A stretch of 38,095 bases of DNA. It comes from a virus. Taxonomy: Duplodnaviria; Heunggongvirae; Uroviricota; Caudoviricetes. The stretch's first letter is position 1. Every line of letters begins with the position of its first letter. Of the stretch, positions 1-10,922 are shown one piece after another. A program made the translations under genes and the position numbers. The notes below the pieces were generated by a model. That model ran no database searches, was not told the origin of the DNA, and saw nothing but the letters and a program-made list of their open reading frames with translations. Location: IMG/VR virus record IMGVR_UViG_2526164613_000026, one strand, 5' to 3'.

Positions 1-618
1 TGCATGATCCATAATTGTGTGTGATTGCCCTGAAAGTAGGGTACGTCCGACATCAATCCCGCGCCCATCATCCCAGATACGAATGAAATCACCGCGTGCG
101 TCAGGTAATGCCAGCGCCGGAAACACTTTCGCCAGCACAGGGTAATCAGTGGCAGAGAATTTCGCGCCGTTGAACTTCAAAAACACCATACCGGACCAGC
201 TATCGATTACGGTATCTGGCATTGCAGCGGACGGCCAGAAGAACGGAACGCCAATAGCTGGAGCTCCTTCTCCCAAACCAAGGTTTTCGAGAGCCGTTTT
301 CACCGTGCCATCCGATTTGATATCACCAAACGGATTCTTGCGGCTCAGGTATTCAACAGCAAACCCCGATCCCAGCAATTCAACAAAACCGGGCAGATCA
401 CCATTATCAAGCACATCCCGTTGCGTTTTATCACTTACAAACTGGGCCAGAGCTGCAGCAATAAAGCTGGCCTGCCGAATAACCTTATTGACTTGCGCAC
501 TGGAGGCTTTCCCTGCTGTAAATCCGGATAAAAGCGCGGGCAACGCTTCCCATTCCTCCTGCGATATAACATTGGCATTTCGATCCGTTGCAAACGCTTT
601 AAAGTCATTTTTCGTCAT
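1..618 (-). CDS. Tail fibre protein, N-terminal part (gene continues beyond window start)
   Basis: Minus-strand frame open from ATG at 618 to position 1 with no stop (hand-translated). ATGA overlap with upstream gene stop. Residues about 150-206 match the phage tail-collar motif ([42 protein letters not shown]). Confidence 0.7.
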
Positions 619-1298
619 CAGAGTAATACTCCCCATGCTCCTACATCAAAACCACTGATGAATTCGTTATCCATATCAAAACCAAAAAATTTTGAGCCTT
701 CCGATGGGGTTTCCACCGAAGGTGTTTCAATGCCACCCGCCCATACCCCGGCGGCTTTTACTGTGAGATACCCCTGTTTAATTGCCGCAATTAACTCACG
801 CGATACATCTGAAATATCAGTATCAGGAAAGACCCAGACCGATATCGTCATGTCCTGGTTATCGACTATCTGCATTCGCAGCCCGGATCCTGCTGTTGCC
901 GCGTCAAGAATTGCCGGAAGCGAATCATTCCGTCCGTCCCAGTTATTAATCGCAATCTTCGCTTTAAGAATGACACGATAAGTTTCATCGCTGAGATACA
1001 TGTATCCTGAATCAGGATCGTATGGTCCCTGCCATACCCCCTGATCATATCCAAGCCCGTCGGTATCCCAGCTGAAATAGACACCTGAGATAGGCTGGCT
1101 GACAACACGGCTACGTCCGATCCACAATCCAAGAATGTCAAGTTGCACACCAACCGCAGAGTCAATATCAAATGCAGTAATCAGCCCTCTGGTGGCAGCC
1201 GCAACATCAATAAGTGGCCGGGTCATCAGATCAACATGCGCAAGAAATTTAGGTTTGGTGGCGTGGTAGTTCGTGATTAGTTCGGTGTATTTGCTCAT
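618..1298 (-). CDS. Baseplate/tail fibre-associated protein (position of Mu gp48 / P2 gpI)
   Basis: 226 aa ORF, ATG verified at 1298, translationally coupled to J-like gene upstream and fibre gene downstream. Family assignment by synteny only. Confidence 0.55.
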
Positions 1299-2494
1299 GA
1301 CTCCACCGTTATAACGATATTTTCCGGGGTACAGGACACAGATTCGTTGTATCTGATATCAATGTTTGATGACGACAAAGCCCCCGGGGATTTCCCAATC
1401 GTCAGTTCCTGAATATCGTAATAGCGTGCATTCCCGCCACTCACCACGCCAAGATTCGCCGGTGAGTAAATGCGACTTAAAAGGACCGAATCACCAATCA
1501 TCAGACTATTGATATAGTCGGAAATAGCCTGCTGGATCTGCTGCCCTATCTGTGAGGTATAACCCGTAAAAACTTGTAATTTGATCCGGGCATAAACAGG
1601 TACATCACTGGAACGCGAGAACTTGATTACATGGGGATTGCCGTATTTATCCGGAATCGTAACGGATGTTGTACCGTGAGTGGCTGTCCCCTGACCTTTA
1701 TTCCCTCTGATAGCCTGAGCAATATCCGTCACATCACCGCCATCCACAATCACAGCAACAGAGTGTGGCGGTAACCCGTTACCGTCCTCCGAACCAGTAT
1801 CATTTTCATAGAGTTTGTGGCGGGTTACACCGGTAACATTAGAAACAGCACCATCCAGTGCTTCAAATGGGGTTATTGATGGCAACGCAACACTTTGCGA
1901 CTGACGGATACGTAACTCCGCATCAGTTTCTGCCGGAGAGCCAACAGTAGCCGCAGCAGGATTAGTTACCGAAACCCAGCCACGGGTTGGCGTATTAATT
2001 TCAGTGATTGTTCCAGCCAGCGCCGCCACTGCACCACTGACGGAACATGTTGCGGTCGCCATCACTGTACCATCCACGCCGACCACCACTGAAGCAGGCA
2101 AACGCCATATCACATTATTACTGTCTTTCACGCTGCCATTAATGATGGTTGTTCCGGCAGTTCCTGTAAGAAGCAAATCAACCGTAGAGTTCGTCGCGCC
2201 TTTACGTGAAATACCATTTATTTTCACGTTACTGGTCAGTGCAGCCCCATAGCCGGTTGCCGGTGAAAAACAGTTGTAGACAGTTATCGCCGTATTATTG
2301 GCATCATGAATCGCCAGTGCCATCAGAGCCACCATCTGGCCGTCTTTGCTGTCCGGTTCGAGGTAGGCATCACTGCCATAAATCTGCTGAAAATAGCTAA
2401 TCAGGGTGCTGAGTATCGTCTGATAATCAGGCGCACTGATCCCCTCTGCGGTTACCTTTGCAGATAAACCGAGAGAATCAAGGTTCAGAGCCAT
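1295..2494 (-). CDS. Baseplate J-like protein
   Basis: 399 aa, ATG at 2494, overlaps neighbours. Size and position after W-like and V-like genes fit baseplate J / Mu gp47. Confidence 0.75.
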   Translation of the reverse strand: MALNLDSLGLSAKVTAEGISAPDYQTILSTLISYFQQIYGSDAYLEPDSKDGQMVALMALAIHDANNTAITVYNCFSPATGYGAALTSNVKINGISRKGATNSTVDLLLTGTAGTTIINGSVKDSNNVIWRLPASVVVGVDGTVMATATCSVSGAVAALAGTITEINTPTRGWVSVTNPAAATVGSPAETDAELRIRQSQSVALPSITPFEALDGAVSNVTGVTRHKLYENDTGSEDGNGLPPHSVAVIVDGGDVTDIAQAIRGNKGQGTATHGTTSVTIPDKYGNPHVIKFSRSSDVPVYARIKLQVFTGYTSQIGQQIQQAISDYINSLMIGDSVLLSRIYSPANLGVVSGGNARYYDIQELTIGKSPGALSSSNIDIRYNESVSCTPENIVITVES

Positions 2495-6117: not shown

Positions 6118-6704
6118 TAGCCGCCCCCCAGTAATGACGCCACGTTACCCGTGATGCTTTTCAGCAGTGAAGTATCTGGAGGCTTTGTGGTTTTGTTGCC
6201 GCTATTCTGTACCGCCGACGTGCTGGCCCCTTCCTTCATGTTGGTTTTATCCGCGACGGTAATCTGCTGTGTCCGGGAGATAAGGACCTCCCTCAGGGTG
6301 AGGACGGCGGACAGGACGTTTTCGGTTGTCTTGTCCGTCGTCACTTCCAGCGCCCGGATCAACATGTTGCTGTACAGCCGTTTACCGGTTACCACATCGA
6401 AGGGGATACGACTTTCCTGCAGATCCAGTAGCTCCTGATACGTCTGCTGAGGACTCAGGCCGAGCAGGCTGGTAGCCGTCAGGTTACTGGCAAAATCCAG
6501 CAATGCGCCGCCACCGGCGAAACCAACCTCCATCACCACTTCTGACGGTTTTTTATAGGCATGATCAGCGACAGCGGCCCCGACCTCTACCGGATGCTCT
6601 GTTATTTCAAGCATATCTGTATGCTTCTCTGAAATAACAACACTGGGAACAATCATTCCTATTTTTCTGCTCTGCTGATGAAAAAGTGTAGAGAGAATAT
6701 CCAC
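6117..6704 (-). CDS. Tail protein following tape measure, 195 aa (GTG start) or shorter from ATG 6656
   Basis: GTG at 6704 is preceded by GGTGAGGGTGGG. Alternative ATG at 6656. Function by position only. Confidence 0.5.
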   Translation of the reverse strand: MDILSTLFHQQSRKIGMIVPSVVISEKHTDMLEITEHPVEVGAAVADHAYKKPSEVVMEVGFAGGGALLDFASNLTATSLLGLSPQQTYQELLDLQESRIPFDVVTGKRLYSNMLIRALEVTTDKTTENVLSAVLTLREVLISRTQQITVADKTNMKEGASTSAVQNSGNKTTKPPDTSLLKSITGNVASLLGGG

Positions 6705-8692
6705 TAACCCACCCTCACCTGATTACTTCGCATGACCTGAGCATTTGCAGACTGTTGCCGACGTGCAACCTCATTACCGACAGCGTGCGGATCTCCGCCA
6801 CCGTAAATGTGGTAAGTATTTTGCTGGTTAACCTCTGTCACTTTGCCACTAATTCCTGCCACGGCAGCCTTATTAATCAGCTCTCGGGAATAGATATTTC
6901 TTCCATTTTCATGCTGGATAATACTGCTCATCAATGCTGACATGGTTTGCGGATCGCTCATATTCAGGGCAGCCCGGGGATCCACTCCCAGTCGTTGCGA
7001 TACAGCCCTGATATACGCAGTTGTGTTGTTATTATCAGACGCAGGTGCCCAGGTAGAGATAATTTTCTCCACACTGTTTATTCCCCGTCCGGCGTACAGC
7101 ATTAACTGACGAGCAAGAGCCCGTAATCCATCAAAGGCAGTTTCAAATCTGGCAAATCGCCCGCCCGGGCGTTCAAGAGAAGCCCCTGCCTGACCAGCAA
7201 AATTAAGGTTTCCCGGATTGTTATTCCGTTCTCCTCGTTTCGTAGCCTGTGCATGTTGTTCCGGCTCATCATCACCAAACCAGCTGCGTACCGTCCGGCC
7301 CACGCTACGGGGATCGAATCCCCAGTGCTCTTTAATCCAGTCGGCAGTACTGTTAGCGCTGTCTGTAACCATCGGCATCGCTGACGGATTTGCGCTGCCC
7401 TGATTAAGTATCTGTTTGCCGATGCTGACGGCATCAGCCCAGCGGCCATCTTTGATAGCGTTGAGCAGGTCGGCGATCATGTTCAGCATTTTGCTGAATT
7501 CGCCCATCTGGTCGATGAAGTTGCTGAAATCCCACTTCAGGGACCATGATTTGGGGTCAATATTGAGTAGTTTCGCCAGCGCTTTCGCCAGGTCGTTAAC
7601 GGTCGTTTTAAGGTCACGAACCATCTTCAGCGCGGCATCGACCTCCGGTTTCCACTTGCCCCAGTCAATCAGGCTGTCGCCGCCTTCCTTCCAGGTCTGA
7701 TAGTCCTCCCACAGGAGGGCAATACCCGCCGCCAGCGCGGTAATGAGGCCAATCGGCGACATCCAGAACGTACTGTTCAGAATGCGCAGCGCAATCGTCA
7801 GTGCGCCAAACAGCGAGATCAACTCCCGCGTTTGCTTATCCAGCGATTGCCACCAGGTGATGAGGCTTGATGTTCCTTCAATCAGTCTGAAGAACAGCCG
7901 CCCGATAATATCCCCGAGCGCCAGAATGCCTTTTATGGCTTTCGTCAGGGTCTGCTCGATACGAGGGAAGTTGTCCAGGATATGGCGGCGCAGGGTGTCC
8001 AGCGAACCCGCAAGCCCACCCGCAAGATTAGAGCCGATTTTGTCACGGGCCATGCCTGCCATCGCGCCAAACTCACGCAGGGAGGTCATAAATTTGTTGG
8101 AGCTTCTGGCCGCCTCGTCAGCATTGAAGCCGATAGCTTTCGCCATTGCGCTGTACTGCCCGGAGAAGCCACCCACACCCCGGCGCATCGCCATAAGGGT
8201 ATTTTCGTCAATGCCCAGCATCTGCGCATACTGGTTAGCCCGGTAATACGGCATGCCGCTGAGCTTCTGGCCTACACCTGTAAAAATAGCGGCCATGTCA
8301 CGCATGTTACCGCTGGCATCCCGTGTCTGTACCCCCAGGCGATTCAGAAATCCCTCTGCCCCGGGATTGTTACGAATAAACCGGGAGAGGCTTTCCAGAG
8401 AAGATCGCGCAGCGTCCACGCTGCCGCCAACCTGCGAAACCGCATAGCCAATAGACTGAATTCCCTGGACTGTCGCGCCAGTGCGCTGTGACGCCCAGTA
8501 AAGATTATCCAGGCCGGAGGCAATCTTAGCCGTAAAGGCCACCACGGACAGTGCAGCTCCTTCAACGGCCAACCCCATTTTGATGACATTTGCAGTTGTC
8601 CCGGCGAGGACAGAACCGAATTTTTTTGCTCCAGCATCATCCACACTGAAGCCAAGCGAGACGAGGAAATCTTTAATAGTTTCAGCGTTCAT
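6704..8692 (-). CDS. Tail tape measure protein
   Basis: About 660 aa. ORF track starts at TTG 8713; first ATG is 8692 with GAGAGGA upstream. Ala/Gly-rich repeats and hydrophobic segment, directly downstream of chaperone. Confidence 0.8.
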   Translation of the reverse strand: MNAETIKDFLVSLGFSVDDAGAKKFGSVLAGTTANVIKMGLAVEGAALSVVAFTAKIASGLDNLYWASQRTGATVQGIQSIGYAVSQVGGSVDAARSSLESLSRFIRNNPGAEGFLNRLGVQTRDASGNMRDMAAIFTGVGQKLSGMPYYRANQYAQMLGIDENTLMAMRRGVGGFSGQYSAMAKAIGFNADEAARSSNKFMTSLREFGAMAGMARDKIGSNLAGGLAGSLDTLRRHILDNFPRIEQTLTKAIKGILALGDIIGRLFFRLIEGTSSLITWWQSLDKQTRELISLFGALTIALRILNSTFWMSPIGLITALAAGIALLWEDYQTWKEGGDSLIDWGKWKPEVDAALKMVRDLKTTVNDLAKALAKLLNIDPKSWSLKWDFSNFIDQMGEFSKMLNMIADLLNAIKDGRWADAVSIGKQILNQGSANPSAMPMVTDSANSTADWIKEHWGFDPRSVGRTVRSWFGDDEPEQHAQATKRGERNNNPGNLNFAGQAGASLERPGGRFARFETAFDGLRALARQLMLYAGRGINSVEKIISTWAPASDNNNTTAYIRAVSQRLGVDPRAALNMSDPQTMSALMSSIIQHENGRNIYSRELINKAAVAGISGKVTEVNQQNTYHIYGGGDPHAVGNEVARRQQSANAQVMRSNQVRVG

Positions 8693-8921
8693 TATCCTCT
8701 CTCCATTTCTCAATGCGCCGCTGGTTATCCGCTTTTACCGCCAGATGGTCATTCAAGAGAGCAATATCGTACAAATCGACAGAGCCATCTTTAAGTGCTG
8801 TATAAGGAATTAACCCGGCGTCAACCGGATTGAGAAGGTAGGACAGCCCGTCCGGCAGGCTGTTAAACGTCAGCCCTGTTGCAGGCTCTGCGTCGTACTG
8901 GTAAGGGATGTAGGCAAAAAA
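8682..8921 (-). CDS. Minus-1 frameshift extension of tail assembly chaperone (G-T-like fusion product)
   Basis: Slippery run GGG-AAA-TTTTTT-G in the chaperone 0 frame (A_AAT_TTT / T_TTT_TTG, plus 8915..8924). The -1 frame is open for 80 codons with no start codon of its own and ends at TGA 8684..8682, just inside the tape-measure start. Confidence 0.5.
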   Translation of the reverse strand, partial: FFAYIPYQYDAEPATGLTFNSLPDGLSYLLNPVDAGLIPYTALKDGSVDLYDIALLNDHLAVKADNQRRIEKWREDNER

Positions 8922-9322
8922 TTTCCCAGCGAATTGGCGACCACCCGCGCCACCAGATGAAGCATGACCAGCAGGTCAATATCATCAAACATCAGTTCGC
9001 CCTGGGTAAATACCGGCACCCATCCGTCCATATGACGCCGCGATACCACCGCAAGACAGGGATGAATAATCGCATCGGTGTCATCTTCGGTCAGGGAAGA
9101 CAGTTCCTCAGCGATACGCGGGAGCATGGTTTCAAACACCGGTTTTAACTGCTCGAATTTCACGGTGTCGATTTTACCATCAGCAGGCAAACGGGAGCGA
9201 ATGCTCCCGAAATCTGACATCATTCCCGCCAGCACCGGCAGAAGTTTGCGGGTCACTTTCAGCTGGTCAAAAACGCTGAGTTTTGCCACGCGATATTTCA
9301 CGCCTTTAATTTCGAATTCCAT
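8870..9322 (-). CDS. Tail assembly chaperone
   Basis: 150 aa, ATG verified at 9322, between tube and tape measure genes. Carries the slippery site 15 codons before its stop. Confidence 0.7.
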   Translation of the reverse strand: MEFEIKGVKYRVAKLSVFDQLKVTRKLLPVLAGMMSDFGSIRSRLPADGKIDTVKFEQLKPVFETMLPRIAEELSSLTEDDTDAIIHPCLAVVSRRHMDGWVPVFTQGELMFDDIDLLVMLHLVARVVANSLGNFLPTSLTSTTQSLQQG

Positions 9323-9325
9323 GCA

Positions 9326-9766
9326 TTAAAACTCCCCGAGAACCTGGTCAATCTTGCCGCAGTCAAACACCCACGGCATCGTATTACCGGTTTTAGCGTT
9401 GGCGTTATCCGGTTGTTTCTGGAACGCAACACTGCGTGCCGTGATGATGTCGCCGCTGACCTTGTTGCGGATCACGATAACGTTATTCCCCCATGTGGCA
9501 GAAGACTGGCTCTGTGCGTTATACGCCAGCGACAATTTTTTATTTGTCGGTGATGTCTTCAGAAGGTTAACGGTAATTGTCCCGCTTTTATCTGCATGGA
9601 GACTGTGCATCACTTCGCCATCAGAACCGATGGTCATGGTGTTTTTAGGACCGCCCATCGCAACCACAATCCCCTCTTCAGAACTTGCCGAACCGTACCC
9701 GAGGTCAATCGAACCGGTCGGCCCGGTCAGCGTCGCAGTGACATCCATAAAAGAATAGGTAGACAT
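9326..9766 (-). CDS. Tail tube protein
   Basis: 146 aa, ATG at 9766, directly downstream of sheath gene. Confidence 0.7.
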   Translation of the reverse strand: MSTYSFMDVTATLTGPTGSIDLGYGSASSEEGIVVAMGGPKNTMTIGSDGEVMHSLHADKSGTITVNLLKTSPTNKKLSLAYNAQSQSSATWGNNVIVIRNKVSGDIITARSVAFQKQPDNANAKTGNTMPWVFDCGKIDQVLGEF

Positions 9767-9776
9767 TCACTTCCCC

Positions 9777-10922
9777 TTAGCGAACAACGTTAATCTGTAC
9801 GTCAGCGTAATGAACCGCGCCTGCAAGTTTTATTGCAGCCTGAATCACCGGAGCCTTACGGGCTTCACGTTCTGATTGTGCCTGTTCATCCAGCGGCTGG
9901 GCGTATACGTAATAACCTTTGGGCAGCGTGTCACCTGATGACAACTGACCAAGGTCGCCCCCGTTCCATACGCCCGGAGCAATCAGTCCATTCTGAACGG
10001 CCTGATCCAGTGATTTTTCAACATTTGATAACAGTCGGGTAATACCGGCTTCAGTCTGGGGAACTTTCGTGGTGCTGGTATAAAGCAGGTTATAAAGGTT
10101 GGTCTGCACATAATTCTGTAACCAGTCCAGGCCGTGGCGTTCATCAAAGAAATCGCCGTTAGCCATCACTCCCTGCTGGAGGATAGCCGTATCATTCTGG
10201 TAGTACACGAACACATTGCAGTTTTTTGCATCAAGTGCCGATGCCTGGCTGACTGTCAGTGTTTCATACCCGACACCCGGCTCCTGCTTAAACTTGAGCG
10301 TAATCGCGGTATTACTGCCATTGAAATTAACCGTGAATGCCCGGCCAAATGCAGATAACGCAGCGTATTTATTACCCGATGAATACTGAATAAAACTGCG
10401 TGAATATCCGGCGGTTTTCAGTTTTGATGCCAAATCATCGCTGGATGCAGTCTGCAGGCATTTCTCATCGCTTGTCGTAATCGCCAGAATACGGCTTACA
10501 GAAGAGGATTCGATCGCCGCAGCCACTTTCAGCCAGTCTGCATCCGGAATATCTTCATCGTCTGCAATCCCCAGCCCATACCATGAAGTATAATCAAGCA
10601 TGGCATTCACAGCCTGCTCCAGCGTCTCATGCGTGGCCTGTTCGCTGTCTCCCTTCGTTTTCACCCAACGACCAACAAAAACCTCCTGAGGTTTCGGTGA
10701 TTGTGAGAAAAACACCTGCGCAGCCTTATATTCTGGTGATTCCACGCCAAAATCTTTTCCAATATCTTCCGCGGCAGAATAACGGCGAATGCGCTCACTT
10801 ACCGGAATGATTGTGGACGGGCCGAGAATGAGTAATGCACCAAAATTTCGCCCTGATGCTGCACGCGGCGACATGATCACATCAACATTAACAACGTTTG
10901 ATACAGGCAAGCCCTGTGCCAT
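9777..10922 (-). CDS. Tail sheath protein (short sheath family of contractile tails)
   Basis: 381 aa, ATG at 10922. Position before tube/chaperone/tape measure; family recalled from memory as DUF3383-type sheath. Confidence 0.7.

What the first reader, a model, noticed from the sequence alone, without database searches (positions are those of the whole stretch)
8682..8930. Programmed -1 ribosomal frameshift site in the tail assembly chaperone
The chaperone gene contains the slippery run GGGAAATTTTTTG (A_AAT_TTT and T_TTT_TTG in the 0 frame) 15 codons before its stop. The -1 frame has no start codon of its own, is closed just upstream by TGA, and stays open for 80 codons until it terminates a few bases inside the tape-measure start. 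This is the signature of the conserved G/GT-type chaperone frameshift, here with a U-rich heptamer rather than the lambda G_GGA_AAG site.
Basis: partly seen in the sequence, partly recalled or inferred. Interest (0 to 1): 0.5.

Follow-up and report, generated by a model that had tools for sequence, protein, structure and literature searches.

The report
Prophage tail-chaperone −1 frameshift site
This is a real but ordinary example of the programmed −1 ribosomal frameshift that tailed phages use to make a short and a long tail-assembly chaperone from one gene; its main practical value is correcting a widespread mis-annotation of the downstream "DUF6889" piece as a separate gene.

Summary
On the minus strand, the 150-aa chaperone gene (9322..8870, Pfam Phage_TAC_15) contains GGGAAATTTTTTG (8927..8915) in the 0-frame register CTG GGA AAT TTT TTG, 15 codons before its stop. 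The −1 frame has no usable start. It stays open for 79 codons to a TGA (8684..8682) that overlaps the tape-measure ATG (8692) by 11 nt. The predicted 213-aa fusion gains a DUF6889 domain.

Comparative evidence is strong. About 70 related loci, down to ~30% identity, keep the two-frame layout. pN/pS in the unique part of the extension is 0.40 in the −1 frame against 1.3–1.4 in the other frames. Synonymous sites are frozen across A AAT TTT TTG. 69/70 loci keep T_TTT at the same Phe codon.

The U-rich site is not unusual: phage P2 E/E+E′ uses the same T_TTT_TTG, and a lambda-like G_GGA_AAT also overlaps here. No downstream RNA structure is conserved. An SD-like GGTGG 14–17 nt upstream is a possible stimulator.

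Homologues in Klebsiella phage Mulock and Burkholderia phage Magia already carry joined frameshift CDSs in GenBank. RefSeq instead annotates the window's extension as a separate CTG-initiated gene.

Verdict: new member of a known kind, low interest. No experiment exists for this family.

The parts
8870..9322 (-). Tail assembly chaperone gene, 0-frame product of 150 aa (the short form)
8915..8927 (-). Slippery run GGGAAATTTTTTG, made of three overlapping in-register heptamers: G_GGA_AAT (8927..8921), A_AAT_TTT (8924..8918) and T_TTT_TTG (8921..8915)
   Evidence: Synonymous positions are frozen across relatives: Phe TTT 60/60, Asn AAT 54/54, Leu TTG 55/55, Gly GGA 53/60. T_TTT at the Phe codon is kept in 69/70 loci.
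8941..8945 (-). SD-like GGTGG within CGG GTG GTC, a possible upstream stimulator (inferred, not shown)
   Evidence: [quoted passage not shown] 46/54 unique relatives meet the published SD criteria (GGNGG etc., 6-17 nt), against 12% background. It is stronger than a synonymous-codon null, at -7.4 vs -5.2 kcal/mol. The Val codon is GTG in 55/60.
8870..8921 (-). Overlap zone where both the 0 frame (poorly conserved P/T/S-rich tail of the short form) and the -1 frame (linker of the long form) are open; the shift must occur at its 5' end
   Evidence: In four enterobacterial loci (L032, L053, L057, L058) a -1-frame stop abuts the T-run, and the same is seen in Providencia phage PSTCR3. pN/pS in the overlap is 0.56 in the -1 frame and 1.34 in the 0 frame. 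The 0-frame tail is predicted disordered.
8682..8921 (-). -1-frame extension: 79 codons plus the TGA stop at 8684..8682. The long form is 213 aa.
   Evidence: Conserved as protein in 59 unique relatives. In the unique region pN/pS is 0.40 in the -1 frame against 1.31 and 1.44 in the other frames, and third-position diversity is 0.55 against 0.30 and 0.24.
8691..8807 (-). DUF6889 domain (Pfam PF21829; PHROG 4364 'unknown function'), residues 173-211 of the long form
   Evidence: Pfam E=8.9e-20 on the fused sequence. PHROG 4364 at E=1e-23. A low-confidence model suggests a small three-helix unit after a linker of about 23 residues.
8682..8846 (-). RefSeq's separate 54-aa 'DUF6889 family protein' CDS (WP_071819661.1), judged an annotation artefact
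   Evidence: It starts at CTG. That Leu is Glu in most relatives. Database DUF6889 entries have inconsistent starts and lengths of 48-102 aa.
6704..8692 (-). Tape measure protein gene. Its ATG is at 8692..8690 and its SD (GGAGAGAGG, 8704..8696) lies inside the KWRE codons of the extension.
   Evidence: PHROG 2276 'tail length tape measure protein' at 5e-283. RefSeq start. The 11-nt overlap with the -1 stop compares with 8 nt in lambda and P2.
9326..9766 (-). Tail tube gene (DUF3277 / KPP10_Orf10), immediately upstream of the chaperone
   Evidence: Pfam PF11681 at 6.8e-60.
9777..10922 (-). Tail sheath gene (DUF3383), context showing a contractile tail
   Evidence: Pfam PF11863 at 4.9e-101. PHROG 205 'tail sheath'.

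Best explanation
The window carries a SEN34-like (Brunovirus-type) myovirus prophage of E. coli O55:H7. Its tail assembly chaperone gene is decoded in two ways.

Most ribosomes read the 0 frame to the TGA at 8872..8870 and make the 150-aa short form. A minority slip back one nucleotide on the run A_AAU_UUU_UUG at the conserved Phe135 codon. They then read 77-78 further codons in the -1 frame and terminate at the TGA at 8684..8682, just inside the tape-measure gene. This yields a 213-aa long form: the chaperone domain, a linker of about 23 residues, and DUF6889.

By analogy with lambda gpG/gpGT and P2 E/E+E', the shared N-terminal domain would coat the tape-measure protein. The C-terminal DUF6889 domain would recruit the tube protein. 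The fixed slip frequency would set the short:long ratio.

Shown here: the anatomy, its conservation, coding selection on the -1 frame, selection on the slippery nucleotides, and the absence of a conserved start or a downstream RNA structure.

Inferred: that ribosomes actually shift, which heptamer they use, the efficiency, a stimulatory role for the upstream GGUGG, and the binding partners of each domain.
For: 1. Anatomy in the window.
2. Identity and synteny: Phage_TAC_15 plus DUF6889, between tube and tape measure.
3. Conservation: 60 of 62 loci analysed at the site (the window, SEN34, YP3 and 59 scorable genome-contig loci from the 61 fetched) keep a 77-84-codon -1 ORF across the chaperone stop. 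All 40 phage records match the fused query in two pieces, i.e. two reading frames, down to about 30% identity.
4. Coding signal: in the unique region pN/pS is 0.40 in the -1 frame against 1.31 and 1.44 in the other frames.
5. Site selection: the heptamer is T_TTT_TTG in 57, T_TTT_TTT in 3 and T_TTT_TTC in 2 of the 62 loci. The preceding codon always ends in T whatever the amino acid. Synonymous positions of GGA AAT TTT TTG are frozen while neighbouring codons vary freely.
6. In four enterobacterial loci a -1-frame stop abuts the T-run, and Providencia phage PSTCR3 shows the same, which pins the shift to the run.
7. No independent start: 49/60 loci have no ATG, GTG or TTG before the conserved domain, and only 1 has an SD. 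RefSeq has to use CTG.
8. Distant relatives that lack T6 still have canonical heptamers at the same Phe codon: C_CCT_TTT, A_AAT_TTT, G_GGT_TTT.
9. Precedent: P2 shifts at TTTTTTG and has no hairpin. A_AA.U_UU.U-type and U_UU.U_UU.Y motifs are efficient in E. coli.
10. Curators of phages Mulock and Magia annotated joined frameshift CDSs for homologues.
Against: - There is no experimental evidence for this family. No peptide, reporter or mutant data were found. The SEN34 and Mulock papers do not mention the frameshift.
- No conserved downstream stem-loop or pseudoknot exists: RNAalifold returned an empty structure, the mean z-score is -0.1, the window's z-score is -0.33, and Rfam gave no hit.
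- U_UU.U_UU.G is not in the top E. coli motif list of Sharma et al..
- The exact slip heptamer cannot be resolved.
- 11/60 loci do have some potential start codon in the -1 frame.
- The SD-like element overlaps conserved Arg-Val-Val codons. Half of the synonymous-null sequences also score <= -6 kcal/mol, and the sequences are phylogenetically related.
- The structure models are of low to moderate confidence.
Confidence: 0.9

Rival explanations
1. Transcriptional slippage: RNA polymerase adds one extra U on the T6 tract, giving a subpopulation of mRNAs in which chaperone and DUF6889 are in frame. The ribosome does not shift.
For: A +1-nt change in the run gives exactly the fused ORF, as in the T7 database variant L004. 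Conservation of the T-run would be expected under this model too.
Against: Six T is short for efficient polymerase slippage (my own knowledge of the known bacterial cases, which use runs of about 9). Distant homologues keep the same two-frame layout with only T4 but with canonical ribosomal heptamers, C_CCT_TTT or A_AAT_TTT. Selection also covers the A of GGA and the G of TTG, outside the homopolymer. The identical P2 site is described as a translational frameshift.
Confidence: 0.05
2. Two separate genes, as in RefSeq: DUF6889 is translated on its own from a non-canonical start (CTG at 8846) as a peptide of about 54 aa. The slippery run is incidental.
For: RefSeq/PGAP annotates it this way in hundreds of E. 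coli genomes. Some lineages have ATG or GTG near the start of the domain, and gene callers emit 58-63-aa ORFs.
Against: The CTG codon is not conserved; it is Glu in most relatives. 49/60 loci have no canonical start and only 1 has an SD. Protein-level conservation and -1-frame constraint extend upstream of any candidate start, right to the T-run (FFARTPRQRD). Called starts and lengths are inconsistent, at 48-102 aa. This model does not explain the frozen synonymous sites at the slip run.
Confidence: 0.04
3. No function: the open -1 frame and the slippery run are chance features or a decaying remnant in this prophage.
For: A few relatives are decayed: L012 has a broken chaperone, and L034 and L057 have truncated extensions.
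Against: The window is 100% identical to a complete genome, and the locus is present in 342/5426 E. coli genomes. It is conserved across many genera, with purifying selection on the -1 frame. SEN34 is a plaque-forming myovirus with the same locus.
Confidence: 0.01

Closest known systems
Bacteriophage P2 E / E+E' tail chaperone frameshift (Christie et al. 2002; Xu, Hendrix & Duda 2004, as cited in PMC3091744)
   Same: Both are contractile-tailed phages with the gene between tube and tape measure. The heptamer T_TTT_TTG is identical and in the same 0-frame register. Neither has a downstream hairpin. In both, the -1 extension ends a few nt inside the tape-measure gene: 8 nt in P2, 11 nt here.
   Different: There is no detectable sequence homology (hhalign probability <1%). 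The Pfam families differ: PF10109+PF06528 against PF21822+PF21829. The products are larger here, 150/213 aa against 91/142 aa. The 0-frame tail after the site is longer, 14 codons against 6. The window has two further overlapping heptamers. P2's GGTGG lies 2-3 nt upstream, not 14-17 nt.
Phage lambda gpG / gpGT (Levin et al. 1993; Xu et al. 2013, 2014, as reviewed in PMC5009743)
   Same: The gene position and logic are the same: a short form and a -1-extended long form at a fixed ratio, with the long form ending 8 nt inside the tape-measure gene H. A G_GGA_AAN heptamer is also present here.
   Different: Lambda is a siphovirus with G_GGA_AAG as its only site, a 144-codon T extension and no SD-like element upstream (best -2.5 kcal/mol). 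There is no sequence homology, and the Pfam families are PF06894+PF06223.
Klebsiella phage Mulock CPT_Mulock_014/015 and Burkholderia phage Magia CPT_Magia_015/016, annotated 'tape measure chaperone frameshift product'
   Same: These are true homologues of the window's chaperone and extension. Mulock is about 57% identical and has the same GGA AAT TTT TTG site. Both are already drawn as joined CDSs in GenBank.
   Different: They exist as annotation only, and the Mulock paper does not mention them. Magia uses C_CCT_TTT instead of the T6 run. The window's own lineage (E. coli prophage, SEN34, YP3) is not annotated this way.
TAC-N / TAC-NC locus of Pakpunavirus (phage Adele) and Andersonviridae (PMC12846349)
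   Same: These are myoviruses with the same type of tube protein (KPP10_Orf10 family). [quoted passage not shown] The downstream 'hypothetical' ORF is re-interpreted as the C-terminal part of a -1 frameshift product, using the same comparative argument.
   Different: The conserved motif is different (GTTTTT) and so are the phage families. No direct homology was tested here.
SD-stimulated -1 frameshift signals of E. coli dnaX and IS911/IS3
   Same: These are bacterial -1 sites where an internal SD-like sequence 6-17 nt upstream stimulates slippage. The window's GGTGG meets the published sequence and spacing criteria for two of its three heptamers.
   Different: Those signals also use a downstream hairpin or pseudoknot, and none is found here. 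The SD-like element here may be only a by-product of conserved Arg-Val-Val codons.

Membership tests
Conserved tail-assembly-chaperone -1 frameshift (G/GT class of Xu, Hendrix & Duda 2004) | Gene lies between the major tail/tube gene and the tape-measure gene | tested here: met
   The order is sheath, tube, chaperone, tape measure on the minus strand.
Conserved tail-assembly-chaperone -1 frameshift (G/GT class of Xu, Hendrix & Duda 2004) | A second ORF in the -1 frame overlaps the 3' end of the first, lacks its own start, and ends at or in the tape-measure start | tested here: met
   The overlap with the tape-measure gene is 11 nt, against 8 nt in both lambda and P2.
Conserved tail-assembly-chaperone -1 frameshift (G/GT class of Xu, Hendrix & Duda 2004) | Canonical X_XXY_YYZ slippery heptamer in 0-frame register inside the overlap | tested here: met
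   Three overlapping heptamers lie at 8927..8915, with frozen synonymous sites.
Conserved tail-assembly-chaperone -1 frameshift (G/GT class of Xu, Hendrix & Duda 2004) | Two-frame arrangement conserved among diverged relatives, with the -1 frame evolving as coding sequence | tested here: met
Conserved tail-assembly-chaperone -1 frameshift (G/GT class of Xu, Hendrix & Duda 2004) | Both short and long proteins are made at a fixed ratio and are required for tail assembly | not testable with these tools
   This needs a western blot or mass spectrometry, plus genetics. No published data were found for this family.
Conserved tail-assembly-chaperone -1 frameshift (G/GT class of Xu, Hendrix & Duda 2004) | N-terminal domain has the tail-assembly-chaperone fold | tested here: inconclusive
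Lambda gpG/gpT protein families (PF06894 / PF06223) | Sequence homology to gpG and gpT | tested here: not met
   hhalign probability is 0.25%. The Pfam families are different.
P2 gpE/E' protein families (PF10109 / PF06528) | Sequence homology to gpE and E' | tested here: not met
   hhalign probability is 0.7%. The Pfam families are different.
P2 gpE/E' protein families (PF10109 / PF06528) | Slip site T_TTT_TTG in 0-frame register with no downstream hairpin | tested here: met
Pfam Phage_TAC_15 (PF21822) with DUF6889 (PF21829) extension | Significant match above the gathering score to both models on the conceptual fusion | tested here: met
   106.1 bits against a cut-off of 22, and 70.6 bits against 23.9.
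SD-stimulated bacterial -1 frameshift signals (dnaX / IS911 type) | [quoted passage not shown] | tested here: inconclusive
   The criterion is formally met for G_GGA_AAT and A_AAT_TTT (46/54, background 12%), and exactly at the 50% threshold for T_TTT_TTN (27/54). The signal is confounded by conserved Arg-Val-Val codons and by relatedness of the sequences.
SD-stimulated bacterial -1 frameshift signals (dnaX / IS911 type) | Downstream stimulatory hairpin or pseudoknot | tested here: not met
   RNAalifold gave an empty consensus and a mean z-score of -0.1. The window's z-score is -0.33. Rfam gave no hit.

The most novel reading that the evidence does not exclude
The site is a composite signal: three overlapping heptamers (G_GGA_AAU / A_AAU_UUU / U_UUU_UUG) under joint synonymous-site selection, plus an upstream SD-like GGUGG and no downstream structure. 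Such a signal could give higher or more robust frameshifting than single-heptamer chaperone sites, and two junction isoforms (NFFA and NFLA). DUF6889 would be a previously unrecognised T-like domain that docks the chaperone on DUF3277/KPP10-type tail tubes of contractile phages.
Probability: 0.3. Interest if true: 0.35.

Novelty: new member of a known kind. Interest (0 to 1): 0.2.

Why it matters
The biology is textbook: chaperone frameshifting is conserved in most long-tailed phages. The value is mainly in annotation.

- **A function for orphan families.** It gives a role to Pfam DUF6889 and PHROG 4364, currently "unknown function". They are the C-terminal, frameshift-encoded domain of Phage_TAC_15 chaperones.
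- **A correction for RefSeq.** Separate "DUF6889 family protein" CDSs with non-canonical or arbitrary starts should be replaced by one joined CDS. This applies to 342 of 5426 complete E. coli genomes and, by extension, to other Enterobacterales. The same goes for entries named "NTP pyrophosphohydrolase" or "lytic transglycosylase".
- **A test case for heptamer usage.** The overlapping-heptamer layout and the possible SD-like stimulator could be used to study how bacterial ribosomes choose among adjacent slip sites.

Tried and rejected
1. **Downstream stimulatory RNA structure.** RNAalifold on 59 aligned sequences gave an empty consensus, single-sequence z-scores were about 0, and Rfam gave no hit. 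Rejected.
2. **Natural in-frame fusions as proof of the long form.** A 213-aa fused cluster exists (P0001), but its members have heterogeneous junctions: T7, T4, and T5 plus a second indel. These look like homopolymer or indel errors and are not used as evidence.
3. **Homology to P2 E or lambda G.** None was detectable. PDB sequence searches with both domain profiles found nothing.
4. **Structure of the long form.** AF2 gave mean pLDDT 56, too low for fold searching. It was used only for a rough domain layout.
5. **A_AAT_TTT as the single functional heptamer.** It is lost in eight of the 62 loci analysed at the site (five with T_TTT_TTG only, three with T_TTT_TTT only) and in several of the distant phages.
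6. **T_TTT_TTG as the single functional heptamer.** It is absent in several distant phages.
7. **Other slippery sites in the window.** T_TTA_AAG at 598(+) lies in a shadow ORF opposite real minus-strand genes. GGGGGGC at 6129(-) simply precedes the next gene's overlapping start.
8. **A bug.** My heptamer finder was out of register. It was corrected.
Full report
**Observation**

The genes in this part of the window lie on the minus strand.
- The 150-aa ORF at 9322..8870 is a tail assembly chaperone: Pfam Phage_TAC_15 at E=2.3e-30, and PHROG 1688.
- It sits between a DUF3383 sheath gene (10922..9777), a DUF3277/KPP10-type tube gene (9766..9326), and a 662-aa tape-measure gene whose ATG is at 8692.
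- The run GGGAAATTTTTTG occupies 8927..8915 in the register CTG GGA AAT TTT TTG.
- Fifteen codons follow Phe135 before the 0-frame stop.
- The -1 frame is closed by TGA 18 codons upstream of the run. It then stays open for 79 codons to the TGA at 8684..8682, which overlaps the tape-measure ATG by 11 nt.
- No ATG, GTG or TTG lies in that frame ahead of its conserved domain.
- The conceptual 213-aa fusion matches Phage_TAC_15 plus DUF6889, the latter at E=8.9e-20.
- Within the window, 40 in-frame canonical heptamers have a median -1 open length of 11.5 codons. Apart from two trivial cases, only the chaperone heptamers run past their gene's stop.

**Origin and current annotation**

- The window is 100% identical to an E. 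coli O55:H7 DEC5B prophage. Related copies occur in 342 of 5426 complete E. coli genomes.
- It is related to Salmonella phage SEN34 (Brunovirus), a plaque-forming myovirus, and to Yersinia phage YP3.
- RefSeq draws the extension as a separate 54-aa "DUF6889 family protein" starting at CTG 8846.
- SEN34 and YP3 leave the 177-nt gap empty.

**Comparative test**

A one-genome-per-species scan returned 61 loci from Enterobacterales, down to 46% chaperone identity. Together with the window, SEN34 and YP3, 62 loci could be analysed at the site.
- In 60 of 62 loci the -1 frame is open for 77-84 codons from the run. It encodes a conserved peptide and ends at the next gene's start. The exceptions look like decayed prophages.
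- In the part of the extension not overlapped by the 0 frame, pN/pS is 0.40 in the -1 frame against 1.31 and 1.44 in the other two frames. Third-position diversity is 0.55 against 0.30 and 0.24.
- Even in the overlap the -1 frame is the more constrained, at 0.56 against 1.34. This matches the poorly conserved, predicted-disordered P/T/S-rich tail of the short form.
- 49 of 60 loci have no canonical start codon in the -1 frame before the domain, and only one has an SD.
- A tblastn of the fusion against 50,697 phage genomes found 40 records. All of them match in two pieces, i.e. two reading frames. They reach Bordetella, Ralstonia, Burkholderia and Acinetobacter phages at about 30% identity.

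**The slip site**

- Across the 62 close loci the heptamer is T_TTT_TTG in 57, T_TTT_TTT in 3 and T_TTT_TTC in 2.
- The preceding codon is AAT, AGT, GGT or GAT. It always ends in T, whatever the amino acid.
- In four of these loci, and in Providencia phage PSTCR3, a -1-frame stop (TAG, TAA or TGA) directly abuts the T-run. The shift there can only be on the run.
- Synonymous-site usage isolates a 10-nt element, A AAT TTT TTG:
  - Phe is TTT in 60/60, while other Phe codons nearby are about 60% TTC.
  - Asn is AAT in 54/54.
  - Leu is TTG in 55/55, while other Leu codons are mostly CTG.
  - Gly is GGA in 53/60, while other Gly positions use GGA in 3/51 and 4/29.
- Distant phages often lack T6 but keep a canonical heptamer at the same Phe codon:
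  - C_CCT_TTT in Magia and BgManors32.
  - G_GGA_AAT/A_AAT_TTT in AbTJ.
  - G_GGT_TTT/T_TTT_TTC in a Ralstonia phage.
  - G_GGA_AAT plus T_TTC in a Bordetella phage.
  - Only the tetramer T_TTT in two phages.
- The constant feature, in 69 of 70 loci, is T_TTT at the conserved Phe codon.
- In E. coli, H_HH.U_UU.Y heptamers (which include A_AA.U_UU.U), U_UU.U_UU.Y and C_CC.U_UU.U are frameshift-prone, as are U_UU.Y tetramers.
- Which heptamer the ribosome uses in the window cannot be decided from sequence. G_GGA_AAU or A_AAU_UUU would give ...GNFFAY..., and U_UUU_UUG would give ...GNFLAY....

**Stimulators**

- No conserved downstream structure was found. P2 has none either.
- By the criteria of Sharma et al., 46 of 54 unique sequences carry such an SD-like motif, against 12% at other in-frame positions of the same genes.
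- The predicted pairing with the 16S 3' end is stronger than a synonymous-codon null, at -7.4 against -5.2 kcal/mol.
- Several distant phages have SD-like sequences 8-18 nt upstream despite different amino acids.
- Two caveats apply. The Arg-Val-Val codons alone give half of the signal, and the sequences are related. I therefore treat this as a lead, not a finding.

**Comparison with known systems**

| System | Short / long product (aa) | Heptamer | -1 extension (codons) | Overlap with tape-measure gene (nt) |
|---|---|---|---|---|
| P2 E/E+E' | 91 / 142 | T_TTT_TTG, same register | 57 | 8 |
| lambda G/GT | 140 / 279 | G_GGA_AAG | 144 | 8 |
| this window | 150 / 213 | T_TTT_TTG (plus two overlapping) | 77 | 11 |

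True homologues already carry joined "tape measure chaperone frameshift product" CDSs in GenBank. These are Klebsiella phage Mulock (about 57% identical, same GGA AAT TTT TTG) and Burkholderia phage Magia. The Mulock paper itself does not mention the frameshift. A 2025 paper argues in the same way for a poly-T -1 frameshift in chaperones of Pakpunavirus and Andersonviridae, which share the KPP10-type tube.

**Rivals**

- **Independent translation of DUF6889.** Against it: the non-conserved CTG, inconsistent database starts (48-102 aa), and -1-frame conservation reaching the T-run.
- **Transcriptional slippage on T6.** It cannot be excluded without experiment. It is disfavoured because distant homologues keep the layout with only T4 plus canonical heptamers, and because selection extends beyond the homopolymer.
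- **Fused 212-213-aa database proteins.** These are indel artefacts with heterogeneous junctions and carry no weight.

**Verdict**

The finding is real and correctly interpreted. It is a new member of a well-known kind, already recognised by some annotators for homologues. Its practical consequence is re-annotation of DUF6889/PHROG 4364 as the frameshift-encoded C-terminal domain of Phage_TAC_15 chaperones. Interest is low. The composite slip site and the possible SD-like stimulator are the only mildly novel aspects.

Noticed in passing
window 8941..8945 (-), within CGG GTG GTC: An SD-like GGTGG lies 14-17 nt upstream of the slip heptamers. It is conserved in 46/54 unique relatives against 12% background, and the Val codon is GTG in 55/60. 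It may be a -1 stimulator or merely a by-product of conserved Arg-Val-Val codons.
   Followed up: partly
window 8682..8846 (-); RefSeq WP_071819661.1: RefSeq annotates DUF6889 as a stand-alone CDS starting at CTG. Across databases the same fragment appears at 48-102 aa, named 'NTP pyrophosphohydrolase', 'lytic transglycosylase' or 'DUF6889 family protein'. These names look like propagated mis-annotations.
   Followed up: yes
L004 and proteins P0001, P0241-P0253: About ten database 'fusion' proteins of 212-213 aa arise from T7, T4, or T5-plus-second-indel versions of the T6 run. They are most likely homopolymer or indel sequencing errors, though real hypermutable variants cannot be excluded.
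   Followed up: partly
window 8696..8704 (-) and 8682..8692 (-): The tape-measure SD (GGAGAGAGG) lies inside the conserved KWRE codons of the extension, and the -1 stop overlaps the tape-measure ATG by 11 nt. The C-terminal conservation of DUF6889 may therefore be partly a dual-coding constraint, and termination of the long form could couple to tape-measure initiation.
   Followed up: no
window 6704..8692 (-), residues ~441-650 of the product: The C-terminal third of the tape-measure protein matches endolysin and 'tail injection transglycosylase' PHROGs. This explains why RefSeq names the whole protein 'lytic transglycosylase' in many genomes.
   Followed up: no
window 149..658 (+), site at 598: An in-frame T_TTA_AAG with a 127-codon open -1 frame lies in a 169-aa ORF. 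That ORF is a shadow of the real minus-strand genes (618..1298 and 1295..2494), so this is not a candidate frameshift site.
   Followed up: yes
L016 (contig labelled Chryseobacterium sp. 18061) and L078 (Elizabethkingia phage EKP1): Records labelled as Bacteroidota (host or phage) carry enterobacterial-type chaperone loci, with 54-69% identity and the identical GGA AAT TTT TTG site. The host labels look questionable, perhaps through contamination or mis-assignment.
   Followed up: no
L012 (Apirhabdus), L034 (Enterobacter sp. R1), L057 (Arsenophonus MAG): These are decayed copies. L012 has a chaperone broken by a frameshift. L034 and L057 have a -1 extension truncated by premature stops. This fits degrading prophages, and these three are the only exceptions to the conserved layout.
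   Followed up: partly
L068 (phage P2) 2670..2692: P2 also has GGTGG (AAGGTGGTCGG) upstream of its TTTTTTG, but only 2-3 nt away, which is outside the spacing reported to stimulate -1 shifting. The resemblance to the window's GGTGGTCG is probably coincidental.
   Followed up: no
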